Origin: an uncultured Candidatus Saccharibacteria bacterium
Lineage (GTDB): Bacteria > Patescibacteriota > Minisyncoccia > Phycocordibacterales > CAIJYI01
Assembly: GCA_964410165.1 (NCBI GenBank)
Contig: CAYPFT010000003.1
Span: 1 to 59,162 of the forward strand
Reading direction: 5' to 3'
DNA length: 59,162 bases
This document shows positions 28,310-53,122 of the stretch, one piece after another. The notes under the pieces were generated by a model, which saw only the letters and a program-made list of their open reading frames with translations, had not been told where the DNA came from and ran no database searches. Each line of letters begins with the position of its first letter. The first letter of the stretch is position 1. The translations under genes were made by a program, and so were the position numbers.

Positions 28310-29701
28310 TTACATGTGTTCTTTTTTCACTTTTTCCAATAAATCTTTCAGTGCCGGACTAACGGAAGGCTTATACTCGTGCGTTTTATCAACCTGCAAA
28401 AACTCTTCCGGGAGAAGCGCCACCTGCTCGGCTGTGTACTCTCGTATTTCGTTCAAACCTTTCCGTTCATAAACCAGTTTTCCGTTTCGGAAAATTTCTA
28501 TCAATTGCGGTTCGCCAAGATTTTCATCCTCAAGCCCTATCACATCGCTTACAAATTTCCCGTTCTTGATAGTTCGAAATACTTGCTTCTTCCCCGGGTA
28601 ACTTTCTTTTCCGGGAGAAAACTTTGCGCATTGCTTCACGTTTCCGTTTGAACAAATTTCAGCAAGTTTGTAAACCGTTTCAAGTTTCGGAGAATCAGTG
28701 AGATTGATAACTTCCGTAGTGACGAGAAAGTTATCTGCCGCAATGCCTCTTGTCATATAATCTTTGATCTTGTATTCATCAAGATTACTTGCGATAGTGA
28801 TTTTCACTTCCGAAAGCCCCGCCGTATCAAGCATCTTTCTCGCCGTAGCCGAGCGTTCAAAGAGATCTCCGCTGTCTATGATGATATTCGGGAGGCCTTT
28901 CTTTTTTTGTTTCAGTTCGTTTGTGACAGTGATGGCGTTCTTCATGCCCTGTTCAAAATCATACGTGTCCACCATGAGATTGATCATCCCTTCAAACAAA
29001 GTGGACATGGTTCTCATTGCGTCGATCTCGCTCGGGAAAGATTTGATCACTGCGTGATACGCATTGGTGAGAGCGTGGACGACGGGCAATCCGAATTTTC
29101 GCGAAAAAGCAGGGATAGAATCAGATCCAACCAATCCGGCAATATAGGCGGCGCGGCTTCCCTTCATGGCCGTTTCAAAACTCGTCGCGCGGATACCGGC
29201 TAGACCGATGCACTTTTTCGGCCGAGCGGCAATGACACACCGAATCGCTTTTGAGAGAAAAGCGGTATTCCCGGTAAGCGCGTTCATAAAAAACATAGTA
29301 AAGAGATTCGACTCAATTATCGGAGCCGTTATCCGCACGACTGGACCGCTGCCAGGGAAAAAGACGCTTCCTTCGGAGAGGGCAGAGAGAGAACCGGTAA
29401 AGCGGAAAGTTCTCAAGTACTCGGCAAAGTTTGCGGTAATGGCTTTCGCCTCAAGAAGCGTTTGAACTTGATCTTCCGTGTACTTCCAATCAAGAAGCCC
29501 GCCAATAATTTCATCAAGTCCGCCGAAAAGAAGAAAATTTCTGTTTGGCGGAGCGTCCCTCACCATGAGATCAAACGTGGCGATATCGTCTTTCATTCCG
29601 CTCTCATACCACGCCGCAGATGCCGCAAAAATCTGCGGAAGCTCGTAGAGATTAAGATCCTCTTCAGTGAAAAGATACGATTCCGGAAAGTTGTTATTCA
29701 T
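28310..29701 (-). CDS. Nicotinate phosphoribosyltransferase family protein (copy 2)
   Basis: 463 aa, long archaeal/CPR-type NAPRT architecture. Conserved C-terminal KxSPGKESYPGKKQVFR block. Paralogous to the adjacent gene. Confidence 0.8.
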   Translation of the reverse strand: MNNNFPESYLFTEEDLNLYELPQIFAASAAWYESGMKDDIATFDLMVRDAPPNRNFLLFGGLDEIIGGLLDWKYTEDQVQTLLEAKAITANFAEYLRTFRFTGSLSALSEGSVFFPGSGPVVRITAPIIESNLFTMFFMNALTGNTAFLSKAIRCVIAARPKKCIGLAGIRATSFETAMKGSRAAYIAGLVGSDSIPAFSRKFGLPVVHALTNAYHAVIKSFPSEIDAMRTMSTLFEGMINLMVDTYDFEQGMKNAITVTNELKQKKKGLPNIIIDSGDLFERSATARKMLDTAGLSEVKITIASNLDEYKIKDYMTRGIAADNFLVTTEVINLTDSPKLETVYKLAEICSNGNVKQCAKFSPGKESYPGKKQVFRTIKNGKFVSDVIGLEDENLGEPQLIEIFRNGKLVYERKGLNEIREYTAEQVALLPEEFLQVDKTHEYKPSVSPALKDLLEKVKKEHM

Positions 29702-29734: not shown

Positions 29735-31162
29735 TTACTCTTTCGCCAGTATTTCACCCCCATGCTTCTTCTTCACTTCCGCGAGCATCTTCCTCAAGCC
29801 CTTGCTGATTGAAACGGGATATATCTTTTGCTTATTCACATCTTTGTACGCATGCGGAAGTTTCGCCAGCTCTTCGTGAAGATACTTCTTCGTTTCTCCC
29901 AGCGTCGGGAGCGGTTTTACCAACTTTCCATTCTCAATAAATTTCTGAAGTAGCGGCTCGCCGAGATTTTCATCTTCAAGCCCAATAATGTCGCCGACCA
30001 TCTTTCCTTTCTTGTCATAAGTACGAAATACCTGTTTTCTGCCCGGGTAACTTTCTTTGCCTTTGGCAAGCTTCGCTTTCTGTTCAACCGTGCCGTCTGT
30101 GCGCCGAAGTTCTGCCATTTTGTAAATGATCTCAAGCTTCGGCGCATCGGAAGTATTCACAAATTCTGTAACCGCTACAAAGAGACTCACGGGAATTTTC
30201 TTTGACATATAACGAGAGATCGAATACTCATCAAGATTGCTGGCTATAACTATCCCTACATCTTGCATCTTTGCTTTGTCGAGCGTCTTTCGCGCATATA
30301 CGGCGCGCTTGTACAAATCTCCGCTGTCAATAGTGACGATCACGCGCCGCCAATCATTTTTCCCGATATGTGAAAGCTCTCTTATAAAGAGAGAAAGCCC
30401 ATGTTCAAAATGATAGGTATCAACCATGACATTCATGCTGGCGGCTCCGGGAAGAAGCTCTTTAAGCGCGTATTGAAACGCTTCTTTTTCAGACGGAAAC
30501 GACTTGATAACCGCGTGATTAACGTTGACGGTAAATTTTGACGGGGGCGGAAACTCCGGAAATTTTCTCGTAAATATCGGCGCCACATGCGGAAAAGCAT
30601 CAAAGAAAAACGCCGTTTTAGAAGCAAAGATACTTTGTTCAAACCCGGGAATGCGGGTCACGGCGAGCATAAGCATTTTGTCTTTCGCCGCTTCTTTAAG
30701 CCGTGCGCCTTTTGTCAGTACGCGGATGGGATAGCTGAAAGAATTAAGGAGAAAAGCGGTAAGGATATTCGCTTCCAAGAGCGGCGCCGTGATGCGAACG
30801 ATGGGTTCGCCGGGGAAAAATAGCGTGCCATCGCGAAGAGCACGGACATCGCCGGTGAAAGAAAAACTCTTGTAAAAATTCTTGAGTTCAGGAGAATTCA
30901 AAAACCCCATCTTCTCTAAAAGCGCCAGGGCATCGTCGTCGAAACGGTATGCCTCAAGAATTGCCAAGAATCGATCAATCCCATGCATGATGAAGTAATT
31001 CCACCTTGGAGGCAGGTCGCGCACAACAAGGTCGAAAGTCGCTATTGCATTGCCGAGGCCACGCTTCATAAAAGCCATGTTGGCCACAAAGATATTTGTG
31101 TATTCCATCAGCGGAATATCCGATACATCTACTTGATAGCATTTGAGAGTTTTATCGTCCAT
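29735..31162 (-). CDS. Nicotinate phosphoribosyltransferase family protein (copy 1)
   Basis: 475 aa, collinear with 28310-29701 (FDLVVRD, VIKSFPSE, MVDTYxFEXG, IDSGDL, KGKESYPGRKQVFR). Confidence 0.75.
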   Translation of the reverse strand: MDDKTLKCYQVDVSDIPLMEYTNIFVANMAFMKRGLGNAIATFDLVVRDLPPRWNYFIMHGIDRFLAILEAYRFDDDALALLEKMGFLNSPELKNFYKSFSFTGDVRALRDGTLFFPGEPIVRITAPLLEANILTAFLLNSFSYPIRVLTKGARLKEAAKDKMLMLAVTRIPGFEQSIFASKTAFFFDAFPHVAPIFTRKFPEFPPPSKFTVNVNHAVIKSFPSEKEAFQYALKELLPGAASMNVMVDTYHFEHGLSLFIRELSHIGKNDWRRVIVTIDSGDLYKRAVYARKTLDKAKMQDVGIVIASNLDEYSISRYMSKKIPVSLFVAVTEFVNTSDAPKLEIIYKMAELRRTDGTVEQKAKLAKGKESYPGRKQVFRTYDKKGKMVGDIIGLEDENLGEPLLQKFIENGKLVKPLPTLGETKKYLHEELAKLPHAYKDVNKQKIYPVSISKGLRKMLAEVKKKHGGEILAKE

Positions 31163-31394: not shown

Positions 31395-32015
31395 TTAGTT
31401 TGCCAAATACTCAATGGCTTTGCCTTTCTTTCCGTTGGTTTTAATCTTTTGCTCTTTTATCAGCTGTAAAAGATACCGCTCTGCCGTTTTATCCGAAACA
31501 TGTAAAAGTTTTTCCACTTCGTCATTTGTGATTTTTCCTTTCTTGGTAATTTCTACCAAAATCCGATCAAGTTTCTTTCGTTTCCGAAATTGCAATTTCT
31601 CCCTTGCTTGCGCGAGGAGAGAAAGAGCAAAGCTTTTTTTATTCTCCTCTGGAGAAACGACAACCGCCACGGGCGGAACGATCACTCCGCCAGCTGGCGG
31701 ATGCGTATTTTCACCGCTTCGCGGTTCAGGCGTTACCGCCTGTGAACTTGGCGCAGTCGCGCTTTCAACCGTTTCGGTTTGCGCCGAAATCGGTTCGGAG
31801 GCACCTCCCTCGCCCGTGGAAGCTTCCACCAAAGGAGGGAAGGCAATCGGGTCAATTACCCCTAATTGACCCGATTCGCTTGACGGCGGTTCGGCAATTT
31901 TCGGTTCATTTTGAGCCGTTTCCGGCACGCTTAGAGCAACCGAAACGGCTTCGCCGTTCGTCGTTCCGGCTTCGTCGGGTTTAGAATTTTCTGTTTCTGG
32001 TGACATAGGGAACAT
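31395..32015 (-). CDS. Hypothetical protein with a low-complexity N-terminus and a C-terminal winged-helix-like domain
   Basis: 206 aa. The C-terminus ILVEITKKGKITNDEVEKLLHVSDKTAERYLLQLIKEQKI looks like a wHTH. Confidence 0.5.
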   Translation of the reverse strand: MFPMSPETENSKPDEAGTTNGEAVSVALSVPETAQNEPKIAEPPSSESGQLGVIDPIAFPPLVEASTGEGGASEPISAQTETVESATAPSSQAVTPEPRSGENTHPPAGGVIVPPVAVVVSPEENKKSFALSLLAQAREKLQFRKRKKLDRILVEITKKGKITNDEVEKLLHVSDKTAERYLLQLIKEQKIKTNGKKGKAIEYLAN

Positions 32016-32088
32016 TTTCCTGTAAAATTTGGCCGGGCGCCGGCGAGCGATTTTTTGAGCCCTTGCTCAAAAAATTATCGCTCCGCCG

Positions 32089-32134
32089 TTCAAGCCCTCA
32101 CGAAAGCCAAGCAGTTGGCTTTCTTCCTCGGCAC
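32089..32134 (+). repeat. Inverted copy of the tRNA-Leu(UAG) 3' end, interrupted by a GCAG-loop hairpin (distal unit)
   Basis: TTCAAGCCCTC-ac-[gaaagccaaGCAGttggctttc]-t-TCCTCGGCAC. Followed by CTCGCTTTGCTC and a 24-nt direct copy of the tRNA-Leu 3' end plus 5 trailer nt (32156-32179). Confidence 0.7.
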
Positions 32135-32250
32135 AAAAATCTCGCTTTGCTCTATTTTTGTGCCGAGGAGAGGACTTGACCGTTACACGGTCAGTACCCG
32201 TTTCCCATTTTTTCGCCATCAAAGATGGCTCAAAAATATGGGGGAACGGC

Positions 32251-32296
32251 TTCAAGCCCTCTCTCGCAAGTGAAGCAGTTCACTTGCTCTCGACAC
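32251..32296 (+). repeat. Inverted copy of the tRNA-Leu(UAG) 3' end, interrupted by a GCAG-loop hairpin (proximal unit)
   Basis: TTCAAGCCCTCTCTCG-[caagtgaaGCAGttcacttg]-CTCTCGACAC. It faces the real tRNA-Leu 3' end 27 nt away. Confidence 0.7.
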
Positions 32297-32323
32297 CAAA
32301 AATACGCAGAGCGTATTATTTTG

Positions 32324-32405
32324 TGCCGAGGAGAGGACTTGAACCTCCATGGGTTGCCCCGTCTGCTCCTAAGGCAGGTGCGTCTACCAATTTCGCCACC
32401 TCGGC
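32324..32405 (-). tRNA. tRNA-Leu (anticodon TAG)
   Basis: GCCGAGGTGGCGAAATTGGTAGACGC..CTTAGGA..long variable arm..GGTTCAAGTCCTCTCCTCGGCA, 82 nt. No encoded CCA. Confidence 0.9.
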
Positions 32406-32518
32406 ATGAGCAACTTCACTACGGAATTTCTCCCTCGACTAAACTTTTCTACAGAAAAGTTTGTCTGGGCACCGCCTCACCCGTTTTGTCCGACCTCGGA
32501 CAAAACATGGCTCCGGCG

Positions 32519-32563
32519 TTCGAATCCTAACGGAAGCAAAGCAGTTTGCTTCCTCTGAGCGAC
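32519..32563 (+). repeat. Inverted copy of the tRNA-Lys 3' end, interrupted by a GCAG-loop hairpin (distal unit)
   Basis: TTCGAATCCTAac-[ggaagcaaaGCAGtttgcttcc]-tcTGAGCGAC. Followed by CTCGCTTTGCTC and a 15-nt direct copy of the tRNA-Lys 3' end (32581-32595). Confidence 0.7.
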
Positions 32564-32674
32564 CCTCCTCGCTTTGCTCAGTCCGCCCAGTAGGAATTTC
32601 TCTCCTTACAGGAGCAGTACACCTTTTCGACTTGTTCATCCGCCTTTGGCGGACTCACAAGTAACGAAAAGCTC

Positions 32675-32720
32675 TTCGAATCCTAACGGAAGCAAAGCAG
32701 TTTGCTTCCTCTGGGCGGAC
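32675..32720 (+). repeat. Inverted copy of the tRNA-Lys 3' end, interrupted by a GCAG-loop hairpin (proximal unit)
   Basis: TTCGAATCCTAac-[ggaagcaaaGCAGtttgcttcc]-tcTGGGCGGAC. The real tRNA-Lys 3' end (GTCCGCCCAGTAGGATTCGAA) starts 18 nt downstream. Confidence 0.75.
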
Positions 32721-32738
32721 ATTCCGCTTCGCTTCCTG

Positions 32739-32811
32739 TCCGCCCAGTAGGATTCGAACCTACGACCTTCTCGTTAAGAGCGAGCAGCTCTACCAACTGA
32801 GCTATGGGCGG
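32739..32811 (-). tRNA. tRNA-Lys (anticodon CTT)
   Basis: CCGCCCA/TGGGCGG acceptor (C1:G72), anticodon loop CTCTTAA, T-loop TTCGAAT, 73 nt. No encoded CCA. Confidence 0.85.
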
Positions 32812-33070
32812 CAGATAAAAAATTAAAATTGAAAAAGTTAAAACTTGTACTCCAAAATTAACTTTCTCTACTATACTGTATTTTCAGATATTTCTCAACT
32901 TGTCTTTATAACCTTTTTCATTTTTCACTTTCAGATTTTCATTTAACAAAGTGCGCTTGAAAGGATTGGATTGGAACAAGGTTTGGCAGGAACTCCGCTT
33001 TTGGCAGGGAGTTTTGCAGCCATCCTATCAAGCAATATAGTCATTTTATCAGAAATAGACACTTCTTTCT

Positions 33071-33739
33071 ATGACAGACCAAGACATACCAATACAGACC
33101 AGTAATACGAAGAAGTTTTCTTTTTACGAAAACTTTGACGGACATTACCACAAGATTGGCGAGATAAGAGAACTTATCCCGCAGTTTAAGGTTTTCTACT
33201 ATTCCGAGCGGCAAAATGACCCAGAACGAAGCGCTATCAAGATTATCAATGACTTCAACAGGAAAATCTCTCCGCTCACTTTCTTCCCTTGGGAGAAACA
33301 ATATCGCCTCTGGCGTAAAAAATGGGATGCAGACCTTCTCATAGAGCGGGGCTACAAACAGCAGCAACGTCAGATTATTAAGCTACGAGACGAGCAAAAC
33401 GGGCTTATCGTGCCAGATGAGCATTCCCTTGAGATTGGGACGCATACCCTCGCTGGGGAGCTTCTGAACGACGCTATGACCCTACTCAAAAGAGACCAGG
33501 AGGATGAAAGTTTCTATGATGAGGAAATCTTGGTTAAACGGAGAACCTATATCCTCAACGTCTTCAACTACGTTACAAGGGCTGTTCACGGCAAGGAAGC
33601 TCTTAAAATAAAATCTAACGCCGAAAAGCGCGAGACCTTCGGTTTTCTTACGGAACTCATCAATAGGTCAACCGCAGGCAAAATTACAAGCGATGAAATG
33701 GCATTGCTAAAACAATCAATAGGTCAGGACAAAAATTAG
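33071..33739 (+). CDS. Hypothetical protein (island cargo)
   Basis: 222-aa ORF, the only plus-strand gene in the left part of the island. No family recognised. Confidence 0.5.
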   Translation: MTDQDIPIQTSNTKKFSFYENFDGHYHKIGEIRELIPQFKVFYYSERQNDPERSAIKIINDFNRKISPLTFFPWEKQYRLWRKKWDADLLIERGYKQQQRQIIKLRDEQNGLIVPDEHSLEIGTHTLAGELLNDAMTLLKRDQEDESFYDEEILVKRRTYILNVFNYVTRAVHGKEALKIKSNAEKRETFGFLTELINRSTAGKITSDEMALLKQSIGQDKN

Positions 33740-33927
33740 CCCTGCTTTTGTTCGCCATCCTTCTTTTCAAGCTCATCAACCCATTCTTTCTTGATGGGTC
33801 TGTAAATAGCATCGAACATCGTTAGAAGATTTATACCTTCTTCGGCTGCCTTCTCGTCGGAGATGTCCTCGCCAAACTGCTCCTTCCAGATTTTTTTGAA
33901 CTCTTTTAGTGCTTTATTGGACAGCAT
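33736..33927 (-). CDS. Small hypothetical protein (last gene of the R-M operon)
   Basis: 63 aa starting at MLSNKALKEFKKIWKEQFG. Overlaps the upstream membrane-protein gene by 14 nt. Confidence 0.4.
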   Translation of the reverse strand: MLSNKALKEFKKIWKEQFGEDISDEKAAEEGINLLTMFDAIYRPIKKEWVDELEKKDGEQKQG

Positions 33928-34405
33928 AGTATTTTTTATAAACGATGTAGCCAATACCAAATACGATTAAAGATATGCCGAGCGGTGGGAATAGATACAA
34001 GATGAGATTAAAAATGTTGTAGAAAAAAGAGATGATGGTATTTAGCACATCTACAATGAACGGAATAATCACAAAATACATTCCGAGTATTAAGCCCCAC
34101 CATATCAAATCCTTCATTTCGTTATACTTTCTCCAGCCGCCGCGTGTGCCACGATAGAGAGAATAAAGAAACTTATAGAAACCCGTAGCAAACAAAAAAG
34201 CGCCGAGTGTTACATAAACCAACGCACTATAAAATAGTCGCGGTAATAATCCTGGCGCTTCTACGGGGTTTATAGATTGCCACTCAAAGCCCTTTTCCGT
34301 GAAGAAATGCCATAGCAACACAGCCAAAGCAAAAACGACGGCGAACGCCGCCGAAAATGTAACTTCTTTCCATTTTGTTTTCAAAACATTTCGATACCAG
34401 GTCAT
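33914..34405 (-). CDS. Multi-pass membrane protein (hypothetical)
   Basis: 163 aa with 4-5 hydrophobic helices. Starts 11 nt after the PHP-ATPase stop. Confidence 0.55.
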   Translation of the reverse strand: MTWYRNVLKTKWKEVTFSAAFAVVFALAVLLWHFFTEKGFEWQSINPVEAPGLLPRLFYSALVYVTLGAFLFATGFYKFLYSLYRGTRGGWRKYNEMKDLIWWGLILGMYFVIIPFIVDVLNTIISFFYNIFNLILYLFPPLGISLIVFGIGYIVYKKYYAVQ

Positions 34406-34416
34406 TATATTGACTA

Positions 34417-37086
34417 TTAAATGTGGAGCTTCTCACCACGTTTTTTGAACGCTTCTCTACCTCCCTCTAATTTCAACAACTCATCTCTGTTTTCTAAATC
34501 CTCGATGGTTGTTTCTATAAACTCTGTAATACCAGTTTCGTTTTTAAGTATGAAGATTTTTTCCGAATCTCCGTTCACTACGAAGTTAGCATTGTGAGTT
34601 GCAAAAATAATTTGTCTATTATTCTTTTTTCTCCTTATCAACGGGACAAGATAATTGGCAATAAGTGAGCCATCCAGATGAGCTTCTGGTTCGTCAATTA
34701 TCAGCGGATAATTACCAAACAAAAGCAGGACGACCATCACAGCTGTGCATTTTTGTCCAAAAGATGCGCGTTCTATATCCTTACCGTCATACAACACCTG
34801 GATGCGTTTATGTTTTGAAACATCATTGAGGTGTTTATCTCTTATGAACTGGAATACTTTGTAGTTAGATTCGTCCGCAAAAACATCCTTCAAGAACTTC
34901 ATATACCCAACTTTCTTTTCTTCTTTGGCAAGAAATGAAAGTATTTTTTCTTGGTTTTCTGCAAAGATTTCCTTGTTTTCAACAATGTATCCTTTCAACA
35001 GGTCGGTTCTTTCGCTATCGTGGTGTTCAGCGAAATAGGAATAAAAATCGCTGGCGATTTCTTTCCACGCTTGTTGCAGGTCGAAGAAGTAAGCCAAGCC
35101 AATATCCTTGATGTCTTCTTTGTCGTTTTCTTTTGCTTGTTCCTCTAATGTAGTTACAAGCGGCTTTATGGAGTCGCCAATAACTTTTTCGTATTCCAAT
35201 TTAACCCTTTTTGCTTCTTCGAGAATTGAATTATATTCACCCAGCTCTTTCTTTTTATCTTCGATTCTCTTTTTAATTTTAGACAACTCATCATTGACCT
35301 TAACGAGTTTTTGTGGAGCACTCTTAACCTGTAAGATGTTCTCATCCGAAAGTCCAGCTTTTTTTAGTAATTTTGAGAGTTCTTTTTCTTGAGTTTCGAT
35401 TTCTTTGGACAATCCTTCCTCTTTTTGAATTAGCGCCTTAAAGTTTTTTCTATCAAGAACCTCTCCTGCTTTTTCGATGTTTGCTTGAGCTTTGGAATAT
35501 GCCTCTTGATATTGTTTGGTTATATCGTCAGTGTCTGCCGTTGCTTGAGAATCTTCAGAGTTGTTATCGTTCGATGAATCCAAAACAAAGTGCTGCTCCT
35601 TGAGACCGCTTATTGACTCTCTTAACTCATCAACAGCGGTTCTCCAGCTCTCCAGTTGTTGTTTCTGATTACTTTTCTTTGTGATTATTCCTATGATGTC
35701 AGCGTATTCCTGGCTTTGTGTTACTTTAATGCTGTTTTCTAATGTTTTCTTTTCTTTCTCTTTGGCTTCCATCTCGGTGGCTGATTCCTTAATGGATTCA
35801 ATCACAAACTGAAAGGAAGCAATCTTTTTTAGAAGTTGGGAGAGCTTAAGCTCATCCTTCTCAAGCAAGCCATCGCTTAAAATGTTCGCTCGTTCGTAAA
35901 TTGCATCGGTAAATGCCTCTTTGTTGGTAGCGAAACTTTCAACTTCACTTTGCCCGATGAACTCAAATACCTCCACCCCATCAAATGTAAAAAAGTTTCT
36001 GTCCGCAGTGTTGAAAGATGGCTGGATTTTTTCCCAGAAAAAGTTTGAAGAACTGGGGTCTTTTGAGTGCTGACCTAAAAAATTAAGAACAGTGCTTTTA
36101 CCCGAACCTCTGCCTCCAATAAAACAATTTAGAAATGGACTTAAGAAAAATGTATCTTGTATGTTGGCAAAACAGAACGGCTCCTCCTTTTCAGTGCCAT
36201 CTTTCTGTTTGACGTTTATTTTTGCCCCCTTTGGTATCTTGAAAGTAATGCTGTCTATTGCGTTATTCGGTTTAATTGGCTCTTTCTCCTGTGTAGCAAC
36301 GCGCGATTGAGGGTCGTAAATAATTTGCTTAAGTCCTTCGTATGTTTTCTCGGACTTAATCCAAGTAAAGCCATCACCAACAACTGATGCCTGGTGAGCG
36401 TCAGAAGTTTTTATTAGGGCAAAGTGGTTTGGGTCGAAACTCCAACTTTTTATAATTTTTATTGTCTCACTTAAATCATCATCGGTTTTGTGGTCGAGAG
36501 CAAAATAATACTTTCCTCCAACCGCATTATCAAAGAACTTCTTTCGGTTCGCGCCCGTTGTTTTCTTAAACAGACCTTTGTTGCTTTGAGAATGCGCAAA
36601 GATTGGTAAGCCAATATCTTCCTTGTAAATCTTGTCCAGGATTTCGTGAATGTCGCCATTTATTGATTCCGCTTGTCCATTAGCATTAAAAACAGGTGAT
36701 GATAGATGACATATGTTATTCAAAAAATGTTCAATAGTTTCTTTCCAGGTCTGCTTGCCAATTTTTTCCTTATACAAGGGGTTGAAAACTACGAGTATTT
36801 GATAACCCGTATTTACATCTATCTCCACGCCAGCCAAAACCGTAATATCGAGCTTTTCTCCTTCGACAATCTCTAATGCCCTATCAATGGCAACTCCACA
36901 GTTATGGTCAGTTATAGCAACAACCGATATACCCTTCTCAATCGCTTTTTTTAGATAATCCCGTGTAGCATTAGTGATTTCGGCGGTCTTATTTGCCAAA
37001 TCTGAAAACCACTCATCCTTAATTGGCTGAATTTGCAAATCCCACTTTCTCCATTCTGAACCCCTGTTTTGTGATGTTTGACTCAT
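34417..37086 (-). CDS. PHP-domain phosphoesterase fused to an SMC/Rad50/SbcC-like ABC ATPase with a coiled-coil insert
   Basis: N-terminal PHP motifs (VVAITDHNCG, LAGVEIDV, FAHSQS, IKTSDAHQ). Walker A FIGGRGSGKSTVLNFLG. A ~300-aa Lys/Glu-rich coiled coil. Walker B PLIIDEPEAHLD, then IFATHNANF. Confidence 0.75.
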   Translation of the reverse strand: MSQTSQNRGSEWRKWDLQIQPIKDEWFSDLANKTAEITNATRDYLKKAIEKGISVVAITDHNCGVAIDRALEIVEGEKLDITVLAGVEIDVNTGYQILVVFNPLYKEKIGKQTWKETIEHFLNNICHLSSPVFNANGQAESINGDIHEILDKIYKEDIGLPIFAHSQSNKGLFKKTTGANRKKFFDNAVGGKYYFALDHKTDDDLSETIKIIKSWSFDPNHFALIKTSDAHQASVVGDGFTWIKSEKTYEGLKQIIYDPQSRVATQEKEPIKPNNAIDSITFKIPKGAKINVKQKDGTEKEEPFCFANIQDTFFLSPFLNCFIGGRGSGKSTVLNFLGQHSKDPSSSNFFWEKIQPSFNTADRNFFTFDGVEVFEFIGQSEVESFATNKEAFTDAIYERANILSDGLLEKDELKLSQLLKKIASFQFVIESIKESATEMEAKEKEKKTLENSIKVTQSQEYADIIGIITKKSNQKQQLESWRTAVDELRESISGLKEQHFVLDSSNDNNSEDSQATADTDDITKQYQEAYSKAQANIEKAGEVLDRKNFKALIQKEEGLSKEIETQEKELSKLLKKAGLSDENILQVKSAPQKLVKVNDELSKIKKRIEDKKKELGEYNSILEEAKRVKLEYEKVIGDSIKPLVTTLEEQAKENDKEDIKDIGLAYFFDLQQAWKEIASDFYSYFAEHHDSERTDLLKGYIVENKEIFAENQEKILSFLAKEEKKVGYMKFLKDVFADESNYKVFQFIRDKHLNDVSKHKRIQVLYDGKDIERASFGQKCTAVMVVLLLFGNYPLIIDEPEAHLDGSLIANYLVPLIRRKKNNRQIIFATHNANFVVNGDSEKIFILKNETGITEFIETTIEDLENRDELLKLEGGREAFKKRGEKLHI

Positions 37087-37092
37087 ATCATT

Positions 37093-39576
37093 TTATTCGC
37101 CCCACACTTCGGCGATTTTGTTTTCTACTTTATCCTCGTAAAGCTGAATCATCCTTTGAGCTGATTCTATATGTCCCTGTTCGTCTCGAAGTTGTTGCAC
37201 AATCTGCTTCTGTGTATCTAAATCTGGTAACGGGATTTTGAACTTCTTTATTTGGTCAGTGGTAAGATTCTTAAAAACAGCGCCTATTGATTGTGAATTG
37301 TTTAGCTGCTTTTGATTCAAGAACACATAGTATAAGAACTCTGGCAGTATGTCTTTTGAAAGTTCCCTAAACCCAACAAAGCCGTCGTGTATGCACGCGT
37401 CAACATTGAGAATTGACGGCAAGCCAGGGTTGCCGCTAACCGCCATAACTACCTCTCCTTTTTTCATTGGTCGGCTCAATTTTGCTCCTTCTTCCGTTAA
37501 AAAATCAGTTTGCGGGGTAACATACATTCCATCTCTTGTTACATCAGAAATCATCAAGCGCGGCACGCTGCCCCCATAATAGCGTTTATCTCCTTGTGGT
37601 CGCGGCGAACTGCCACGAACCAATTTGCATATACCATCAATCGCAATTTCTTTCCATTCGGGACTAATCTTTATTGTTGGTTTGTGGTGCGTAATGATTT
37701 GCTTCGCACCATCAATGACTTTTTGATAGCTATCGAGTTCGTCAGCAATTTCTTTTTGAAGTTCGGGCGGAGGGAGAGGGATTTTGTATTTTGACAACCA
37801 AACGGTGCTTAAGTTCTTTTGAGCAACACCATTTGATGATGCAATACACTCATTCTCAAAGGCATCGGCGTTTAGGAGATGAAATAAAAATCGTGTGGTG
37901 ATTTTTTCGGGATTGACCCGCAGGCAAGCTACTCTTTGATTTAGTGCAGCGGGTAAAAGTTCCCTCGTCATTAGCCCAACCCTACCAACATTTCCCGTTA
38001 AAGAAATCAACAGGTCATTTTCAAACAATTCGTATTTTTCGATAGATTCTTTAGAAACAAGTGGATAAAACTTTGGGTTGTCATCAACTATTTCTCCTTT
38101 TTGAACGTTGGTTATTCGTATTACGCGGACACCTTTATTAGTATAGTTATCACTCTTAAACGCATATCCGTTTACTATGTCGCAAACATCGCCAAGTTTT
38201 ACCATTTCCCATTTGTGGTTAAAAACTTTGGCAATGTGATTATATCTATCGCCAGAAAGATTGTATTCTCCGTCTTCAGCGATTTGAGTTTTTGGAACAG
38301 CCCACGCAAACAAACTACCTTCTTTGAGCAAATGGTTCTTTTTACCTGTTCTTATTATCTCGTGCTGTGTTTTAAGGATTTCAACGGCGTGTGGTAAATC
38401 GTTGCGGTCAATTGGCTTCCGCTGTGCCCCCAAATCAAAGCCATCATTGAGAATCTTGATGAATAGAATATCTTTTGATTGTTTTGCCAGCTGGTTATCA
38501 AAAAAAAGAATACTCGTTCTCACGCCAGAGTAAGGATTGAAAACTCCAGCAGGCAAAGACACAATCGCATACAATCCATCTTCAACAAGAAGTTTTCGCA
38601 ATTGCTTGTAGGAAGTCGCGGCAGTAAAAACAATCCCTTCGGGCACAATGATACCCGCCCGTCCTTTATTGTTGAGATGCTCTAATATGTAATCAACAAA
38701 AAGCACTTCAGAGCGGTTGGCTTGCACCATAAAGCGCTTATGTGGACGGATACCGCCTCTTGGTGTCATAAATGGCGGATTTGCCATCATTACATCGAAG
38801 CGCTCATCCCACTTTTCTTCGCTTGTAAGCGTGTCGTATTCGTGGATTTTTGGACTTGGGAAGCCGTGGAGATACATATTCACCAGGGAGAGCTTCACCA
38901 TATCTGGTGATATGTCGTATCCCGCGAGATTTGCCATCAGACGCTTTTTTTCATCAGGAGTCAGGGGTTTGTTCTTGTTGGATTTCAGAATGTGCTTATA
39001 GGCGGAAATCAAAAATCCAGCCGTGCCACAAGCGGGGTCAAGGATGGTTTCGTCTTTCTTTGGGTCAACCACTTCAACAATAAAATCAATGATGTGGCGC
39101 GGCGTTCGGAACTGTCCCGCTTCACCCTGTGAGCCAAGCACAGACAGCAGATACTCAAAAGCGTCGCCAAGATTCTCGCTGTGGTCGTAAGAAAAAGTGT
39201 TTATGTCCTTTAGGAACAGGTTTAGTGTTTCTGGGTCGCGGTATGGCAAAAAGGCATCTTTGAAGACATCACGGAAGAGTTGTGGCAGGTGTGGATTCTT
39301 CGACATCTTCGTTATGGCTTCCACATAGAGATTCAGACGCTCCTGCCCGCCAAGTTTCGCATCCATCATTTTGCTCCAAGCGTATTTCTCAAATCCGTTC
39401 GTAAAAAACTGCGGCTTGCCTTTTGGCAATGATGCGGCTTGCTTATCCATATCGTCCATAAACTTATAGATAAGTGCCGTGGTGATTTGCTCTACCTGGG
39501 CTTTTGGGTCTGGGACTTTGCCAACCAATACATCCCGCGCCGAATCAATTTTCTTTTTTATTTCTTGGGTCAACAT
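37093..39576 (-). CDS. hsdM: Type I restriction-modification methyltransferase fused to a specificity subunit (HsdM-HsdS fusion)
   Basis: HsdM N-terminus (VGKVPDPKAQVEQITTALIYKFMDD), AdoMet motif DPACGTAGFL, catalytic MANPPF. Followed by two TRD-like halves (WEMVKLGDVCDIVNGYAF..., WKEIAIDGICKLVRGSSPRP...). Confidence 0.85.
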   Translation of the reverse strand: MLTQEIKKKIDSARDVLVGKVPDPKAQVEQITTALIYKFMDDMDKQAASLPKGKPQFFTNGFEKYAWSKMMDAKLGGQERLNLYVEAITKMSKNPHLPQLFRDVFKDAFLPYRDPETLNLFLKDINTFSYDHSENLGDAFEYLLSVLGSQGEAGQFRTPRHIIDFIVEVVDPKKDETILDPACGTAGFLISAYKHILKSNKNKPLTPDEKKRLMANLAGYDISPDMVKLSLVNMYLHGFPSPKIHEYDTLTSEEKWDERFDVMMANPPFMTPRGGIRPHKRFMVQANRSEVLFVDYILEHLNNKGRAGIIVPEGIVFTAATSYKQLRKLLVEDGLYAIVSLPAGVFNPYSGVRTSILFFDNQLAKQSKDILFIKILNDGFDLGAQRKPIDRNDLPHAVEILKTQHEIIRTGKKNHLLKEGSLFAWAVPKTQIAEDGEYNLSGDRYNHIAKVFNHKWEMVKLGDVCDIVNGYAFKSDNYTNKGVRVIRITNVQKGEIVDDNPKFYPLVSKESIEKYELFENDLLISLTGNVGRVGLMTRELLPAALNQRVACLRVNPEKITTRFLFHLLNADAFENECIASSNGVAQKNLSTVWLSKYKIPLPPPELQKEIADELDSYQKVIDGAKQIITHHKPTIKISPEWKEIAIDGICKLVRGSSPRPQGDKRYYGGSVPRLMISDVTRDGMYVTPQTDFLTEEGAKLSRPMKKGEVVMAVSGNPGLPSILNVDACIHDGFVGFRELSKDILPEFLYYVFLNQKQLNNSQSIGAVFKNLTTDQIKKFKIPLPDLDTQKQIVQQLRDEQGHIESAQRMIQLYEDKVENKIAEVWGE

Positions 39577-39578
39577 AA

Positions 39579-42095: not shown

Positions 42096-42098
42096 AAT

Positions 42099-42278
42099 TT
42101 ACTTGTGTATGTTGGAGCTACGTCGAATAAAATCTTGCAGGTCTTCCTCGTATATGCGCCATCTGCCGATTTTTGTCGCTTTCAGCTTCTTCGCCTCGAT
42201 ATAGCGATAGACAGTGCGCTCTCCAACCTGGAGTCGCTTTGCTACTTTTTCTATTGTTAGAAACTTCTTTTTTGGCAT
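42099..42278 (-). CDS. Small HTH (excisionase/MerR-like, HTH_17-type) protein heading the R-M operon
   Basis: 59-aa ORF not in the track: MPKKKFLTIEKVAKRLQVGERTVYRYIEAKKLKATKIGRWRIYEEDLQDFIRRSSNIHK. Its stop lies 4 nt before the hsdR ATG. Confidence 0.6.
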   Translation of the reverse strand: MPKKKFLTIEKVAKRLQVGERTVYRYIEAKKLKATKIGRWRIYEEDLQDFIRRSSNIHK

Positions 42279-42511
42279 AGCTACCAGTTATGATTTGTTA
42301 TGACTTGATATAACGAATCATAACGCTTCATAACTCTTATGTCAAAAATGTTCAAAACTGACAACTGGTTTTTTCTGCACAATTTTATTTTTTTCAGAGC
42401 TGTGGATAAGTATTCTATAACTTTCTTATACTCTTATGCACTTTGGATAACGCGCTTATACATCAAAAAACTTGTTGCAATTTTATGAACTGGTAAAATT
42501 AAATTGACAGT

Positions 42512-42724
42512 TACGTAGTTGCCGAGAGAAAACGGCAACTATCGAGCAGCAGAAGTAACGTCGCCAATACAATCGTATCCAGCTGCGATTGTCTACGTGA
42601 AAACGTAGCGCGACTCTTTCGATTCGCTGGTGGCGATAAACTTCTGCTGATGCACAAAGCCCGTTAGCGGCTTTGCGGGTCGCCTCAAAGCAGAAGCCCC
42701 GCCAAGCCATTAGCGGGTTTTTTC
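42512..42724 (+). ncRNA. Candidate structured RNA (cloverleaf-like four-way junction plus terminator); family unknown
   Basis: Nested helices. Outer pair: cagcagaagt (42547-56) with acttctgctg (42640-49). Next pair: cgtcgcca (42559-66) with tggtggcg (42628-35), enclosing three hairpins, including ctacgt-GAAA-acgtag. Then caaagccg-ttag-cggctttg and cccgc..gcggg + T7. A TGgTAAAAT -10-like box lies upstream. Confidence 0.35.
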
Positions 42725-52746: not shown

Positions 52747-52882
52747 TGCGGGACTAGGAACTCGCCCCATTGCGGGGCGGGGATTTTTTGCCTCGCTTTG
52801 CTCAGCATAAAAAATCCCTTCGAGCCCTAGGCGGAAGTGAAGCAGTTCACTTCCTTCCCGCAGGAAAAAACTTCGTTTTTTA
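52747..52882. repeat. tRNA-Gln trailer unit: a direct copy and a hairpin-split inverted copy of the tRNA-Gln 3' end
   Basis: tgcgggactagg (52747-58) equals 52884-95. Hairpins cgcccc-attgc-ggggcg and gggatttttt..CTCGCTTTGCTC..aaaaaatccc. Then TTCGAGCCCTAG-gc-[ggaagtgaaGCAGttcacttcc]-t-TCCCGCAG (52819-63). Confidence 0.75.
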
Positions 52883-52953
52883 CTGCGGGACTAGGGCTCG
52901 AACCTAGATACTCAGGACCAAAACCTGATGTCCTACCATTAGACGATCCCGCA
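52883..52953 (-). tRNA. tRNA-Gln (anticodon TTG)
   Basis: TGCGGGA/TCCCGCA acceptor (U1:A72, as in bacterial tRNA-Gln), anticodon loop TTTTGGT, T-loop TTCGAGC, 71 nt. No encoded CCA. Confidence 0.9.
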
Positions 52954-53122
52954 ATGAATTTTTTACAAAGTTCTCGTCTTCACAATGAGGCGTCCGTTTT
53001 TGCGACTTCACTCGAACCTACTTTATCAAAAATTCCTGAATGACGAAAGCCCCGCCACCGCCTCGCTCCGCTCGGCAACCCCAAAGAAGTTCTGGGCAGT
53101 GTGGCGGGGCTTTAATGCGGAC

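What the first reader, a model, noticed from the sequence alone, without database searches (positions are those of the whole stretch)
32016..32738. tRNA-Leu and tRNA-Lys are followed by tandem units: an inverted copy of their own 3' end, split at the T-stem/acceptor junction by a conserved GCAG-loop hairpin
Each of four units contains the sense sequence of the neighbouring tRNA's last ~20 nt, placed in inverted orientation: TTCAAGxCCTC...CCTCGGCAC for Leu and TTCGAATCCTA...TGGGCGGAC for Lys. Each inverted copy is interrupted at the same structural position, between the T-stem and acceptor strands, by a 20-22-nt hairpin.
- The hairpin loop is always GCAG. The stems differ by compensatory changes: gaaagccaa/ttggctttc, caagtgaa/ttcacttg, ggaagcaaa/tttgcttcc.
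- Units are separated by direct copies of the tRNA 3' end: 24 nt at 32156-32179 and 15 nt at 32581-32595.
- They share other conserved pieces. The 12-mer CTCGCTTTGCTC occurs at 32141 and 32568. A TTACA-loop hairpin followed by CAGTACNC occurs at 32178-32199 and 32602-32623.
The flanking arms match each local tRNA, so they cannot simply be carried in by one mobile sequence. The pattern suggests either a tRNA-end-templated insertion/duplication mechanism or a selected trailer structure that can pair with the tRNA 3' end. I do not recognise this architecture.
Basis: seen in the sequence. Interest (0 to 1): 0.8.

Follow-up and report, generated by a model that had tools for sequence, protein, structure and literature searches.

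The report
Tiny folded insertion elements behind tRNAs
The repeats behind tRNA-Leu, tRNA-Lys and tRNA-Gln belong to a widespread family of small, highly folded insertion elements that I could not find described anywhere; they occur mainly in Patescibacteria, sit at the 3' end of tRNA, tmRNA and one ribosomal-protein gene, and each carries a mirror-image copy of that gene end split by a conserved 22-nt hairpin.

Summary
The window holds five units, not four; the fifth follows tRNA-Gln at 52747-52881. On the tRNA-sense strand each unit reads:
- the gene's 3' part, from the T-loop through a short trailer
- a tip loop
- an inverted complement of that 3' part, interrupted by a conserved 9-bp hairpin (GCAG on the + strand, CTGC on the sense strand)
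- a body of one or two hairpins
- usually a second, direct copy of the gene's 3' part (DR2).

The same hairpin occurs in at least 100 loci, mostly Patescibacteria. 61 of these 100 hairpins lie just 3' of a tRNA of about 19 isotypes, others after tmRNA genes or inside the end of rplE. The arms match the local gene.

At rplE, related genomes have empty sites. There the element supplies a new stop codon and the native gene end survives as a relic behind it.

No Rfam family, plasmid or phage record, or paper matched, and no recombinase gene lies nearby.

Best reading: miniature non-autonomous insertion elements whose gene-sense single strand folds into a forked hairpin resembling the target. The closest analogues are CTXphi attP(+) and integron attC. 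The enzyme and the way the arms are retargeted are unknown. A role as trailer RNA or a programmable guide is not excluded.

The parts
32323..32405 (-). tRNA-Leu(tag). Its T-loop-to-3'-end segment, with trailer (32311-32344), forms one strand ('a') of the palindrome of unit B.
   Evidence: ARAGORN and Rfam; inverted repeats I4/I9; fold
32180..32322 (-). Unit B, next to tRNA-Leu. Trailer/tip hairpin plus arm2 at 32288-32322 (the sense-strand T-run makes it terminator-like); conserved hairpin 32266-32287; arm1 32251-32261; body 32180-32250, including the TTACA-loop hairpin and CAGTAC at 32180-32199.
32156..32179 (-). DR2 of unit B: a 24-nt exact copy of the tRNA-Leu segment from the T-loop to 4 nt past the 3' end. 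It also serves as strand 'a' of unit A.
   Evidence: (D3)
32016..32155 (-). Unit A, the distal and older-looking Leu unit. Tip loop with CTCGCTTTGCTC at 32141-32153; arm2 32125-32140 (16/16 complementary to 32154-32169); hairpin 32102-32123; arm1 32089-32099; body about 32016-32088, truncated and running into the start of the ORF at 31395-32015. No DR beyond it.
   Evidence: (I3)
32738..32811 (-). tRNA-Lys(ctt). Positions 32737-32758 form strand 'a' of unit D.
   Evidence: (I13, I14)
32596..32737 (-). Unit D, next to tRNA-Lys. Tip loop 32722-32736, which reads GGAAGCGAAGCGGAA on the sense strand and contains GCGAAGC; arm2 32711-32721; hairpin 32688-32709; arm1 32675-32685; body 32596-32674 with the TTACA-loop hairpin and CAGTAC at 32602-32623.
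32581..32595 (-). DR2 of unit D: a 15-nt copy of the tRNA-Lys T-stem 3' strand plus acceptor 3' strand. It also serves as strand 'a' of unit C.
   Evidence: (D6)
32420..32580 (-). Unit C, the distal Lys unit. Tip with CTCGCTTTGCTC at 32564-32580; arm2 32555-32563, degenerate, with mismatches that are G.T pairs on the sense strand; hairpin 32532-32553; arm1 32519-32529; body 32420-32518, of the same class as unit A.
52882..52954 (-). tRNA-Gln(ttg), the gene that carries the fifth unit.
52759..52881 (-). Unit E, not in the finding. Trailer/tip 52865-52881; arm2 52857-52864; hairpin 52833-52854; arm1 52819-52830; body 52759-52818, two hairpins, one with CTCGCTTTGCTC in its loop at 52792-52803.
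52747..52758 (-). DR2 of unit E: a 12-nt copy of the tRNA-Gln T-stem 3' strand plus acceptor 3' strand.

Best explanation
The units are miniature (about 120-220 bp), non-autonomous insertion elements. They occupy the 3' end of conserved genes: tRNA, tmRNA and, in some lineages, rplE.

On the gene-sense strand an element reads:
- (a) a copy of the gene from the insertion point to its end, plus its own short trailer
- a tip, which is either an intrinsic-terminator-like hairpin or a loop carrying a C-GNA-G / GCGNAGC mini-hairpin motif
- (a') an inverted complement of (a), interrupted about 12 nt from its outer end by a conserved hairpin GRAAGNNAA-CTGC-TTNNCTTYC
- a body of one or two conserved or covarying hairpins.

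Behind the body lies the displaced native gene end (DR2).

SHOWN:
- this anatomy recurs in dozens of genomes and on about 19 tRNA isotypes
- the arms match the local gene
- at rplE the element supplies the present stop codon, and the sequence behind the element is the native gene end
- related genomes have empty sites and decayed remnants
- unit DNA is better conserved between species than the neighbouring rplE coding sequence
- no recombinase gene is linked.

INFERRED:
- The gene-sense strand is the lagging-strand template, judged from GC skew. As a single strand it folds (a) onto (a') into a forked three-way-junction hairpin that looks like the double-stranded target.
- A recombinase supplied in trans recognises the structure and the conserved hairpin. 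A host Xer-like tyrosine recombinase is a candidate; an HUH enzyme is the alternative.
- That enzyme exchanges one strand at the base of the fork (T-loop 55/56 in tRNAs), and replication fixes the insertion. CTXphi attP(+) and integron attC work this way.
- The gene stays functional because the element brings a replacement 3' end, often with a terminator.
- The arms stay matched because (a) is under selection as part of the gene. The quasi-palindrome would be kept perfect by intrastrand template switching or repair.
For: - Recurrence and structure.
- Arms specific to the local gene: own tRNA 9.9 of 13 matches against 6.9 of 13 for other isotypes; 48 of 67 units beat at least 95% of other isotypes.
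- DR2 is present in 42 of 66 units. It always starts in the T-loop and ends 0-8 nt past the discriminator.
- Targets also include tmRNA and rplE.
- rplE comparison: the filled locus L211 has a 274-nt intergenic space and the empty relative L210 has 114 nt. The relic codons match the native tail at 8 of 9 residues. The '..KAE*' tail occurs only in filled alleles.
- Patchiness: 1 full unit and 2 remnants among 36 rplE loci of Patescibacteria-like relatives (51-85% identity to the query), sampled without regard to whether a unit is present.
- Unit DNA is 84-95% identical between species whose rplE is 73-74% identical. By eye, the distal bodies of L074 and L101 are nearly identical, about 45 of 46 nt.
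- Tandem units have degenerate distal copies.
- Folds: dG about -55 kcal/mol, z about -10.
- Strand asymmetry: the sense strand folds better in 49 of 54 units (p 4e-9). For the bodies this survives a composition control: z -2.90 against -2.31, p 0.005.
- Hairpin single mismatches are A.C on the GCAG strand 9:3, by my hand classification of the hits that look like units.
- GCGNAGC / C-GNA-G tips are DNA mini-hairpin motifs known from single-strand DNA priming sites (PMC13037366).
- GC skew places the sense strand as the lagging-strand template.
- Precedent for a folded single-strand attP made of two inverted target-like sites: PMC4246890.
- A XerC/XerD/XerA-like recombinase is present in the window.
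- No linked recombinase was found near 100 loci.
Against: - No movement has been observed. The closest empty site is at 92% protein identity, not at strain level.
- No enzyme is identified, and no autonomous relative was found.
- The five window units are only about 67-75% identical to each other. This is not a recent burst, and conserved modules in old copies could equally mean a host function.
- Retargeting of both arms to about 19 isotypes is unexplained.
- In L009 and L049 the DR2 looks like the end of a different tRNA-Gly from the adjacent gene. The simple model needs a secondary recombination or deletion to explain this.
- Whether the DR1 segment itself is native or element-borne could not be resolved.
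- The strand bias and the mini-hairpin motif are also compatible with RNA.
Confidence: 0.55

Rival explanations
1. The structure is a selected cis-acting RNA. The trailer is co-transcribed with the tRNA and either pairs with the tRNA 3' half or forms its own fold. It would control termination, 3' processing or stability, and the conserved hairpin would be a protein-binding site.
For: - The sense strand is the better-folding strand.
- Stems keep their structure through compensatory changes.
- Unit DNA is more conserved than the neighbouring coding sequence.
- Old, diverged copies in the window still keep the modules.
- Many tips are terminator-like.
Against: - In 22 of 56 units a terminator-like hairpin plus T-run lies between the tRNA and the arms.
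- The arms complement trailer bases and would compete with tRNA folding.
- Only 3 of 8 tRNAs in the window carry units.
- The same element sits inside a protein-gene end and changes its C-terminus.
- Distribution among relatives is patchy, with remnants.
- DR2 copies decay.
Confidence: 0.2
2. The split arms are a programmable guide. The arms flanking the conserved hairpin, as single-strand DNA or as RNA, base-pair with the target strand and define where a hairpin-bound enzyme cuts and joins. This would extend the 4-nt guide logic of IS200/IS605 to about 20 nt. The arms would be rewritten or perfected against each new target.
For: - The scaffold is constant and the arms vary, on about 19 tRNA isotypes plus tmRNA and rplE.
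- The distance from the hairpin to the outer end of the palindrome, where DR2 begins, is constant at about 12 nt, while arm2 length varies.
- L074 and L101 have nearly identical distal bodies, yet their arms differ at 6 of 19 positions in step with the host gene (compared by eye).
- Where DR1 and DR2 differ, the arms follow DR1 12:1.
- In L009 and L049 the arms match the adjacent tRNA while DR2 resembles another tRNA-Gly.
Against: - The 12:1 result is also expected from simple decay of DR2.
- No enzyme is known, and there is no evidence for any rewriting step.
- A hairpin inside a templated copy is hard to generate by copying.
- Mosaic recombination between elements explains the L074/L101 pattern equally well.
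Confidence: 0.15
3. The unit is a tRNA-like RNA gene. After the tRNA is released, a'-body-DR2 folds into an acceptor/T minihelix with the same acceptor stem as the neighbouring tRNA. The conserved hairpin stands where the D and anticodon arms leave a tRNA. RNase P, RNase Z and the CCA-adding enzyme would then process it.
For: - Topology of the alternative fold: a 7-bp acceptor-like helix, the hairpin, then a 5-bp T-like helix.
- The sense strand is the folding strand.
Against: - DR2 is missing or decayed in 24 of 66 units.
- Where they differ, the arms follow DR1, not DR2.
- The arm next to the T-stem is the complement of the T-loop, not a T-loop (Leu CTTGAA, Gln GCTCGAA).
- Units at rplE have no tRNA-like helix.
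- Neither the tRNA model nor any other Rfam model scores on the units.
Confidence: 0.07
4. The pattern is chance similarity or an assembly artefact.
For: None found.
Against: The same architecture appears in about 100 independent assemblies from many studies and sample types.
Confidence: 0.01

Closest known systems
CTXphi-type integration: a folded (+) single-strand attP recombined with dif by XerC/XerD (IMEX class)
   Same: - The attachment site is made of two inverted target-like sequences on one strand, separated by a spacer. Together they fold into a forked hairpin of about 150 nt that mimics the double-stranded target.
- No integrase is encoded by the element.
- The integrated order predicted for single-strand exchange at the base of the fork (target-left | a - loop - a' - rest | target-right) is the order seen here (PMC4246890).
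   Different: - The target is a tRNA, tmRNA or rplE 3' end, not dif.
- The element is 0.12-0.22 kb with no genes, not a 7-kb phage.
- One arm carries a conserved 22-nt hairpin.
- The arms differ from lineage to lineage.
- A single-strand DNA stage and Xer involvement are not shown.
Integron attC sites and gene cassettes
   Same: - Recombination sites are recognised by the structure of one folded strand rather than by sequence.
- There is an imperfect palindrome with a variable terminal structure and an unpaired feature that breaks the symmetry.
- The crossover lies at the base of the stem.
- Tandem arrays form.
- The folding strand is the lagging-strand template (PMC5027507 and PMC6393395, listed; own knowledge).
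   Different: - There are no R/L boxes or GTTRRRY core at the junctions.
- There is no integron integrase, attI or cassette ORFs.
- The stem sequence here is a copy of the target gene.
IS200/IS605 single-strand 'peel and paste' transposition, and REP/RAYT
   Same: - Subterminal hairpins are read on one strand.
- Bases next to the hairpin foot pair with the flanking target.
- There is a preference for the lagging-strand template.
- Non-autonomous hairpin-only derivatives exist (PMC5027513, listed; own knowledge).
   Different: - In IS200/IS605 the guide is 4-5 nt; here about 20 nt are complementary.
- IS200/IS605 make no direct repeat and do not rebuild the gene end.
- No TnpA or RAYT gene was found near about 100 loci or in the window.
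- There is no REP-like GTAG motif.
tRNA/tmRNA-targeted genomic islands and their integrase-less derivatives (CIME-like)
   Same: - Insertion is in the 3' part of tRNA and tmRNA genes, with the crossover in the T-loop.
- The gene is rebuilt by an element-borne copy and a displaced partial copy remains as a direct repeat.
- Tandem accretion occurs (own knowledge: Williams 2002; fragments discussed in PMC9897764, listed).
   Different: - These units are 100-fold smaller.
- They have no integrase and no cargo.
- They carry an inverted split copy of the att sequence and conserved hairpins.
- One scaffold serves about 19 isotypes.
MITEs and other small bacterial repeats (Correia, RPE, BIME, RIME)
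   Same: They are small, structured, non-coding and intergenic, and sometimes supply terminators or alter gene ends.
   Different: - There are no family-wide terminal inverted repeats and no fixed-length target duplication.
- Copies within a genome are only 67-75% alike.
- The ends are copies of the local target.
IS110/IS1111 bridge (seek) RNA
   Same: A non-coding module in which two short guide segments flank a hairpin and specify the target.
   Different: - As I recall the published geometry, the two guides of each bridge-RNA loop read opposite DNA strands, and a second loop reads the donor.
- Here both arms are collinear and read one strand (offset of exactly 12 in 28 of 56 units).
- There is a single guide-like module and no recombinase gene is linked.

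Membership tests
tRNA/tmRNA-targeted integrative element (genomic-island type) | Insertion in the 3' part of a tRNA or tmRNA gene, with a direct repeat of that part at the far end | tested here: met
   DR2 is present in 42 of 66 units and starts in the T-loop. The window has DRs of 24, 15 and 12 nt. tmRNA examples are L062 and L102.
tRNA/tmRNA-targeted integrative element (genomic-island type) | Element-encoded integrase next to the att site, and kilobase-scale cargo | tested here: not met
   DR2 is always 69-131 nt from the hairpin, apart from one 279-nt tandem copy and one copy 5.6 kb away. No recombinase family recurs near the loci.
MITE | Family-wide terminal inverted repeats and a fixed-length target-site duplication | tested here: not met
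   The inverted sequences are copies of the local gene and differ from unit to unit. DR length varies between 12 and about 28 nt.
MITE | Many near-identical copies per genome and a related autonomous IS | tested here: not met
   Window units are 67-75% identical to each other. No transposase was found in the window or near the loci.
Integron attC / cassette | R''/R' core sites (RYYYAAC / GTTRRRY) at the base of the folded site, and a nearby IntI and attI | tested here: not met
   The junctions read GGTT^CGAAT (tRNA), ATYGG^CTNCC (rplE), and ..TTGTGACC^..ATAGCC^ or ..GAGAAAT^ at the element end. No integron integrase was found nearby.
Integron attC / cassette | Recognition as a folded single strand, with asymmetry features | not testable with these tools
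   Only in-silico folds and strand bias are available.
CTXphi-type IMEX | Two inverted target-like sites on one strand that fold into a forked attP | tested here: met
   In the 56 units lying within 80 nt of their tRNA, the palindrome scores above the shuffled-arm 99th percentile in most cases (53 of 62 tRNA-linked units).
CTXphi-type IMEX | The target is dif, recombination is by XerC/XerD, and there is a filamentous-phage or satellite genome | tested here: not met
   The targets are tRNA, tmRNA and rplE. There are no genes in the element. No units of the Patescibacteria type were found in IMG/VR. Xer dependence is not testable.
IS200/IS605 and REP/RAYT | A Y1 HUH transposase (TnpA or RAYT) in the element or genome neighbourhood | tested here: not met
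   Pfam scans of the window ORFs gave nothing. No such cluster was found near 100 loci. Whole genomes were not searched.
IS200/IS605 and REP/RAYT | Subterminal hairpin with adjacent bases pairing to the flanking target, and no target duplication | tested here: inconclusive
   Hairpin-adjacent complementarity to the flank is present, but over about 20 nt, and a direct repeat exists.
IS110-family bridge RNA | Two loops, each with two guides that read opposite strands of target and donor, and a linked DEDD/serine recombinase | tested here: not met
   Both arms are collinear copies of one strand. There is one guide-like module and no linked recombinase. The family geometry is taken from memory, not checked in a paper.
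Any Rfam family (ribozymes, tRNA-like RNAs, known sRNAs) | Covariance-model match at or near the gathering score | tested here: not met
   Only the tRNAs score. In the window region at E<=10, and in 20 loci at the gathering threshold, nothing overlaps the units.
Intrinsic terminator | G+C-containing hairpin followed by a T-run directly after the gene | tested here: inconclusive
   22 of 56 palindrome tips qualify. The rest carry a loop motif instead. A terminator does not account for the arms, the hairpin, the body or DR2.

The most novel reading that the evidence does not exclude
The conserved 22-nt hairpin with its two flanking arms is a natural, compact, programmable targeting module. About 20 nt of single-strand DNA (or RNA) complementarity, split by a protein-binding hairpin, would tell a trans-acting recombinase or nuclease where to insert the element. 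The enzyme would cut a fixed distance of about 12 nt from the hairpin. The arms would be rewritten or perfected against each new target. That would be a guide-directed DNA insertion system distinct from CRISPR-associated transposons, IS110 bridge RNAs and the 4-nt guides of IS200/IS605.
Probability: 0.18. Interest if true: 0.92.

Novelty: new variant of a known kind. Interest (0 to 1): 0.74.

Why it matters
If these are mobile, they are the smallest gene-end-replacing insertion elements I know of. They are common in the Candidate Phyla Radiation (Patescibacteria), whose mobile DNA is poorly known.

- Annotation: they explain a class of 'tRNA gene fragments', odd tRNA trailers, and altered C-termini such as the '..KAE' tail of L5.
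- Mechanism: one constant scaffold serves about 19 tRNA isotypes, tmRNA and a protein gene. Either a structure-reading recombinase accepts any stem sequence, as integron integrases do with attC, or the arms act as a guide. Either case can be tested directly with synthetic oligonucleotides.
- Application: either case could yield a compact site-specific insertion tool.

If they are instead functional RNAs, they would be a large new family of structured RNAs linked to tRNA genes.

Tried and rejected
- **Rfam.** A gathering-threshold scan of the window, an E<=10 scan of 31900-32900, and a gathering-threshold scan of 20 loci returned only tRNAs.
- **Literature.** I searched by sequence and by topic and found nothing describing this.
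- **Plasmid and phage collections.** Only the tRNA-Leu gene itself matches. In IMG/VR only a Mesorhizobium-type repeat carries the hairpin.
- **Linked enzyme.** I clustered 604 ORFs near 100 hairpins. The top clusters are IF-2, the CCA-adding enzyme, RF, RbfA, UPF0102 and L5, which reflects synteny with tRNAs and not a transposase.
- **Autonomous versions.** A search for distant DR2 copies found none.
- **Close relatives of the window.** None exist in the protein database (best 54% identity). Two exact-protein look-ups failed. An empty-site test at the window's own loci was therefore impossible, and I did it at rplE instead.
- **Pairing with mature tRNA (a PBS-like primer site).** Rejected, because the arms complement trailer bases, not CCA.
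- **Pseudo-tRNA made by direct duplication.** Rejected, because the arm is the reverse complement of the T-loop (CTTGAA for Leu, GCTCGAA for Gln).
- **Small ORF starting at the frequent ACATGGCTCC.** Rejected, because the ATG is not conserved and stop codons follow.
- **Hammerhead-like or other ribozyme at the junction.** No core motifs and no Rfam hit.
- **IS110 bridge-RNA geometry.** Rejected because the arms are collinear.
- **Crossover at the hairpin position.** Rejected, because arm1 matches DR1-left, not DR2-left.
- **'Arms follow DR1 12:1' as proof of co-travel.** Discounted, because decay of DR2 gives the same result.
- **L109 DR2 'with a different T-stem'.** My first reading was wrong. 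The adjacent DR2 is a decayed copy, and the other match belongs to an older truncated unit.
- **One script timed out** and was rerun in a smaller form.
Full report
**1. What is in the window**

All eight tRNA genes of the window are on the minus strand. The region 32016-32738 therefore holds the 3' trailers of tRNA-Leu(tag) (32323-32405) and tRNA-Lys(ctt) (32738-32811).

- four 9-bp hairpins with a GCAG loop
- the 24-nt and 15-nt direct copies of the tRNA ends
- the 12-mer CTCGCTTTGCTC
- the TTACA-loop hairpins followed by CAGTAC.

A fifth unit, not in the finding, follows tRNA-Gln at 52747-52881. It also contains the 12-mer, at 52792.

The hairpin is not a chance feature. It gives 5 matches against 0.24 expected, and none of 100 shuffles reaches 5. 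No other tetraloop gives more than one comparable hairpin.

**2. Anatomy, read on the tRNA-sense strand**

After the tRNA, in order, come:
- a short trailer
- a tip loop
- the complement of the trailer and of the acceptor 3' strand
- two junction bases
- the conserved hairpin (CTGC loop on this strand)
- two junction bases
- the complement of the T-stem 3' strand and of the T-loop
- a body of one or two hairpins
- in most units a second, direct copy of the tRNA from the T-loop to a few bases past the discriminator (DR2).

The 'inverted copy split by a hairpin' and the 'direct copies between units' are therefore parts of one repeating unit. In a tandem pair, the DR2 of the proximal unit is the partner strand of the distal unit's arms.

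As single strands the window units fold into three-way junctions, with dG of -52 to -56 kcal/mol and z about -10.

The arm next to the T-stem is a true reverse complement of the T-loop: CTTGAA for Leu, GCTCGAA for Gln. It is not a second T-loop, so the unit is not a duplicated tRNA with its middle replaced.

**3. It is a widespread family**

I scanned one genome per species with the hairpin pattern, leaving two stem positions free.
- 100 of the 121 matches have complementary bases at the free positions. There are 10 different pairs, p = 1e-98.
- Most hosts are Patescibacteria (Saccharibacteria, Paceibacteria, Nomura-, Moranii-, Kaiser- and Vogelbacteria and others).
- A few hits come from MAGs labelled Parachlamydiales, Elusimicrobia, Fimivivens, Verrucomicrobia or Bdellovibrionales.
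- 61 of the 100 hairpins have a tRNA gene of some isotype 6-225 nt away, in exactly the window's geometry; about 19 isotypes are represented.
- Others lie behind tmRNA genes (L062, L102) or inside the end of rplE (L038, L074, L101, L118, L135).

The arms match the local gene. The 13 isotype-specific bases match the unit's own tRNA at 9.9 of 13 on average, against 6.9 of 13 for other isotypes. 48 of 67 units beat at least 95% of other isotypes, and all five window units beat every one.

The bodies fall into a few recurring classes:
- GGTCACAA...CGCGACC
- GGCTATTACATAGCC-AGGTGCTTTTC...GAAAAGC
- ATTTCTCCCTCGACT...GTCTGGGCACCG...CATGGCTCCGNC.

These contain a variable hairpin that keeps its structure through compensatory changes.

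No Rfam family matches. Neither does any plasmid or phage record, nor any paper I could find.

**4. Evidence that the units are insertions**

(a) DR2 is found in 42 of 66 units. It always begins in the T-loop, about position 55/56. It ends 0-8 nt past the discriminator, where it diverges from the tRNA's present trailer. This is the classical signature of insertion into the 3' part of a tRNA gene.

(b) The rplE case shows the polarity of events.
- In filled genomes L5 ends '...PLQK-AE*' or '...PLQK-PTE*'. The stop codon lies in the tip of the palindrome.
- Behind the body lies a relic 'LPLxKKEEVK*' with its own terminator.
- L5 proteins 96-100% identical to that of L074 all have the 'KAE' tail. 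The closest protein with another tail (P0126, 92% identical) ends 'MPLKKKEEVK'.
- The locus of P0126 (L210) has a 114-nt intergenic space; the filled locus L211 has 274 nt.
- The relic of the filled locus (CCGTTG ATT AAA AAA GAA GAG GTA AAA TAA) matches the native end of the empty one (CCGTTG AAG AAG AAG GAG GAG GTT AAA TAA) at 8 of 9 codons.

So the element supplies the present gene end, and the native end is displaced behind it.

(c) I drew a metagenome sample of rplE loci of Patescibacteria-like relatives without regard to the element. Of the 36 loci analysed (51-85% identity), one has a full unit (L135). Two have remnants (L138 and L140): the 'KAE*' tail plus half a palindrome, and L138 also keeps the first 8 nt of the hairpin. 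The closest relatives of L074 (L130-L134, 79-85% identity) have native tails and no unit.

(d) Unit DNA is 84-95% identical between species whose rplE coding sequence is 73-74% identical. By eye, L074 and L101 share an almost identical distal body, about 45 of 46 nt. That fits horizontal spread or very strong constraint. It does not fit neutral vertical decay.

(e) In the window, the distal units of both tandem pairs are the more degenerate ones, as expected if new copies enter at the gene.

**5. Which strand folds, and is it DNA or RNA?**

- The gene-sense strand folds more stably than its complement in 49 of 54 units (p = 4e-9) and has more G.U/G.T pairs, 186 against 114.
- For the bodies the difference survives a composition control: z -2.90 against -2.31, p = 0.005.
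- Among the hits I judged by hand to be true units, single mismatches in the hairpin are A.C on the GCAG strand, which is G.T on the sense strand, 9 times against 3.
- The conserved class-iii stem GGTCACA/CGCGACC has two A.C mismatches on the GCAG strand, which are G.T pairs on the sense strand.

So the sense strand is the one under structural selection.

Three observations lean towards DNA rather than RNA:
- The arms complement trailer bases, not CCA.
- 22 of 56 units have a terminator-like hairpin plus T-run between the gene and the arms.
- About 14 of the other tips carry C-GNA-G or GCGNAGC on the sense strand; for example, unit D has GCGAAGC. This is the extraordinarily stable DNA mini-hairpin motif, which a recent review places at single-strand DNA priming sites: the G4 origin and RSF1010 ssiA (PMC13037366).

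The window's GC skew is -0.055 on the + strand along its whole length. The tRNA-sense strand is therefore the G-rich one, and by the usual rule the lagging-strand template. This is an inference. IS200/IS605 elements and integron attC sites exploit the same strand.

None of this excludes an RNA role.

**6. Most likely mechanism (inferred)**

The order found in the genome is: target-left | a - tip - a' - body | target-right. This is exactly what single-strand exchange at the base of a folded hairpin gives, followed by replication. CTXphi is the established example. Two inverted dif-like sites fold into an attP(+) of about 150 nt, XerC exchanges one strand pair, and replication completes the integration (PMC4246890).

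Here the crossover lies at the outer end of the palindrome. At rplE, arm1 matches the DR1 side and not the relic. The conserved hairpin sits about one helical turn (10-12 nt) from that point, whereas arm2 varies in length. This suggests a protein bound at the hairpin.

No recombinase gene is linked to the units, so the enzyme must act in trans. The window does encode a XerC/XerD/XerA-like tyrosine recombinase at 44522-45412, scoring below the equivalog cut-offs. Its involvement is pure conjecture, and an HUH enzyme is an alternative.

**7. What remains unexplained**

- How both arms come to match about 19 different isotypes.
- Whether the DR1 segment is native or element-borne. At 92% identity the empty and filled rplE alleles are too diverged to tell.
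- Why L009 and L049 have a DR2 that looks like the end of another tRNA-Gly. Recombination between two elements would explain it, but that is not shown.
- Why copies within one genome are only 67-75% alike yet keep all modules.

The last point keeps a host function as a real rival, whether as RNA or as DNA structure. The first three keep the 'programmable or templated arms' reading alive.

**8. Comparison with known systems**

| Known system | Shared | Missing or different |
|---|---|---|
| Tyrosine-integrase genomic islands | target choice and gene-end replacement | integrase, cargo, size |
| CTXphi attP(+) and attC | folded-strand logic | dif, R/L boxes, linked enzymes |
| IS200/IS605 | hairpin with adjacent complementarity | here about 20 nt, with a direct repeat and no TnpA |
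| MITE or REP | small, structured, non-coding | arms are copies of the local gene |
| IS110 bridge RNA | split guides around a hairpin | arms here are collinear |

I therefore file these units as a new variant of the known kind 'small non-autonomous insertion or integrative element at gene 3' ends'. I give about an 18% chance that the arms act as a true guide, which would make the system categorically new.

**9. Verdict**

Interest is high because the family is abundant, I found no description of it, it is structurally unusual, and it can be tested directly.

Noticed in passing
window 52941-52962 and 56160-56181; inverted repeats 53111-53167 / 56121-56177 and 53175-53205 / 56082-56112: A 22-nt direct repeat, made of the first 14 nt of tRNA-Gln plus 8 nt of leader, recurs immediately 3' of tRNA-Thr. 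The 3.2 kb in between holds an LPG_synthase_C-like ORF, tRNA-Gly and a carbamoyltransferase gene. It is bounded by inverted repeats of about 57 and 31 nt. It looks like an insertion or invertible segment in the 5' part of tRNA-Gln that rebuilt the tRNA 5' end. The original order would have been tRNA-Thr, 9 nt, tRNA-Gln.
   Followed up: partly
window 56236-56379: Three tandem 39-nt repeats lie directly upstream of tRNA-Thr. Each is a partial copy of the tRNA's first ~22 nt (GCCGCTTTAGCT..GGTAG) plus a 17-nt spacer. This is a 5'-side counterpart of tRNA-end copies and is unexplained.
   Followed up: no
window about 53040-53100 (minus strand), upstream of tRNA-Gln: A long hairpin (AAGCCCCGCCAC...GGTGGCGGGGCTT) has a loop containing GAGCGGAGCGAG. 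This belongs to the same GCGNAGC-type class as the loop motif in the unit tips, but here it is on the 5' side of a tRNA.
   Followed up: no
window 33000-47100: A defence and mobility island lies between tRNA-Lys and tRNA-Leu(taa). It holds an AAA_21/PHP protein (34417-37086), type I R-M genes hsdM/S (37093-39576) and hsdR (39579-42095), a XerC/D-like tyrosine recombinase (44522-45412) and a large serine recombinase (45409-47058) that abuts or overlaps the 3' end of tRNA-Leu(taa) at 46952-47038. This is probably a classical island integrated at that tRNA.
   Followed up: partly
L024, L030, L050, L060, L081 (Mesorhizobium); L119, L126, L128, L129 (IMG/VR); L001, L076, L092, L115 (Sulfurovum, Hydrogenimonas, Nitratifractor): The same 22-nt hairpin occurs in repeats of other bacteria with different flanks, for example ..GCCGGCTTTCGTCGTTCG-hp-CGTCCGCTGCGCGGACC.. 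in rhizobia. There is no tRNA next to it. This may be a wider superfamily that shares the hairpin module.
   Followed up: no
L138 (about 2037-2075) and L140 (about 1483-1510): These are decayed remnants of the rplE unit. The 'KAE*' tail and half of the palindrome survive, and in L138 the first 8 nt of the hairpin as well, followed by unrelated sequence. The element-supplied gene end therefore outlives the element.
   Followed up: partly
L065, L067, L091, L099, L107: A subclass of units has a palindrome that covers only the last ~5 nt of the tRNA plus the trailer and terminator. The hairpin then lies beyond the tRNA end. In L065 and L099 (both at tRNA-Trp) the trailers differ and the arms differ with them.
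   Followed up: partly
window 28310-29701 and 29735-31162: Two tandem paralogous nicotinate phosphoribosyltransferase genes, about 41% identical to each other, lie just downstream of the units. The organism has no close relative in the protein database; the best hit is 54% identical.
   Followed up: no
window 1530-3701: A TrwB/TraG-like type IV coupling protein is encoded here. It could be relevant to single-strand DNA traffic in this genome.
   Followed up: no
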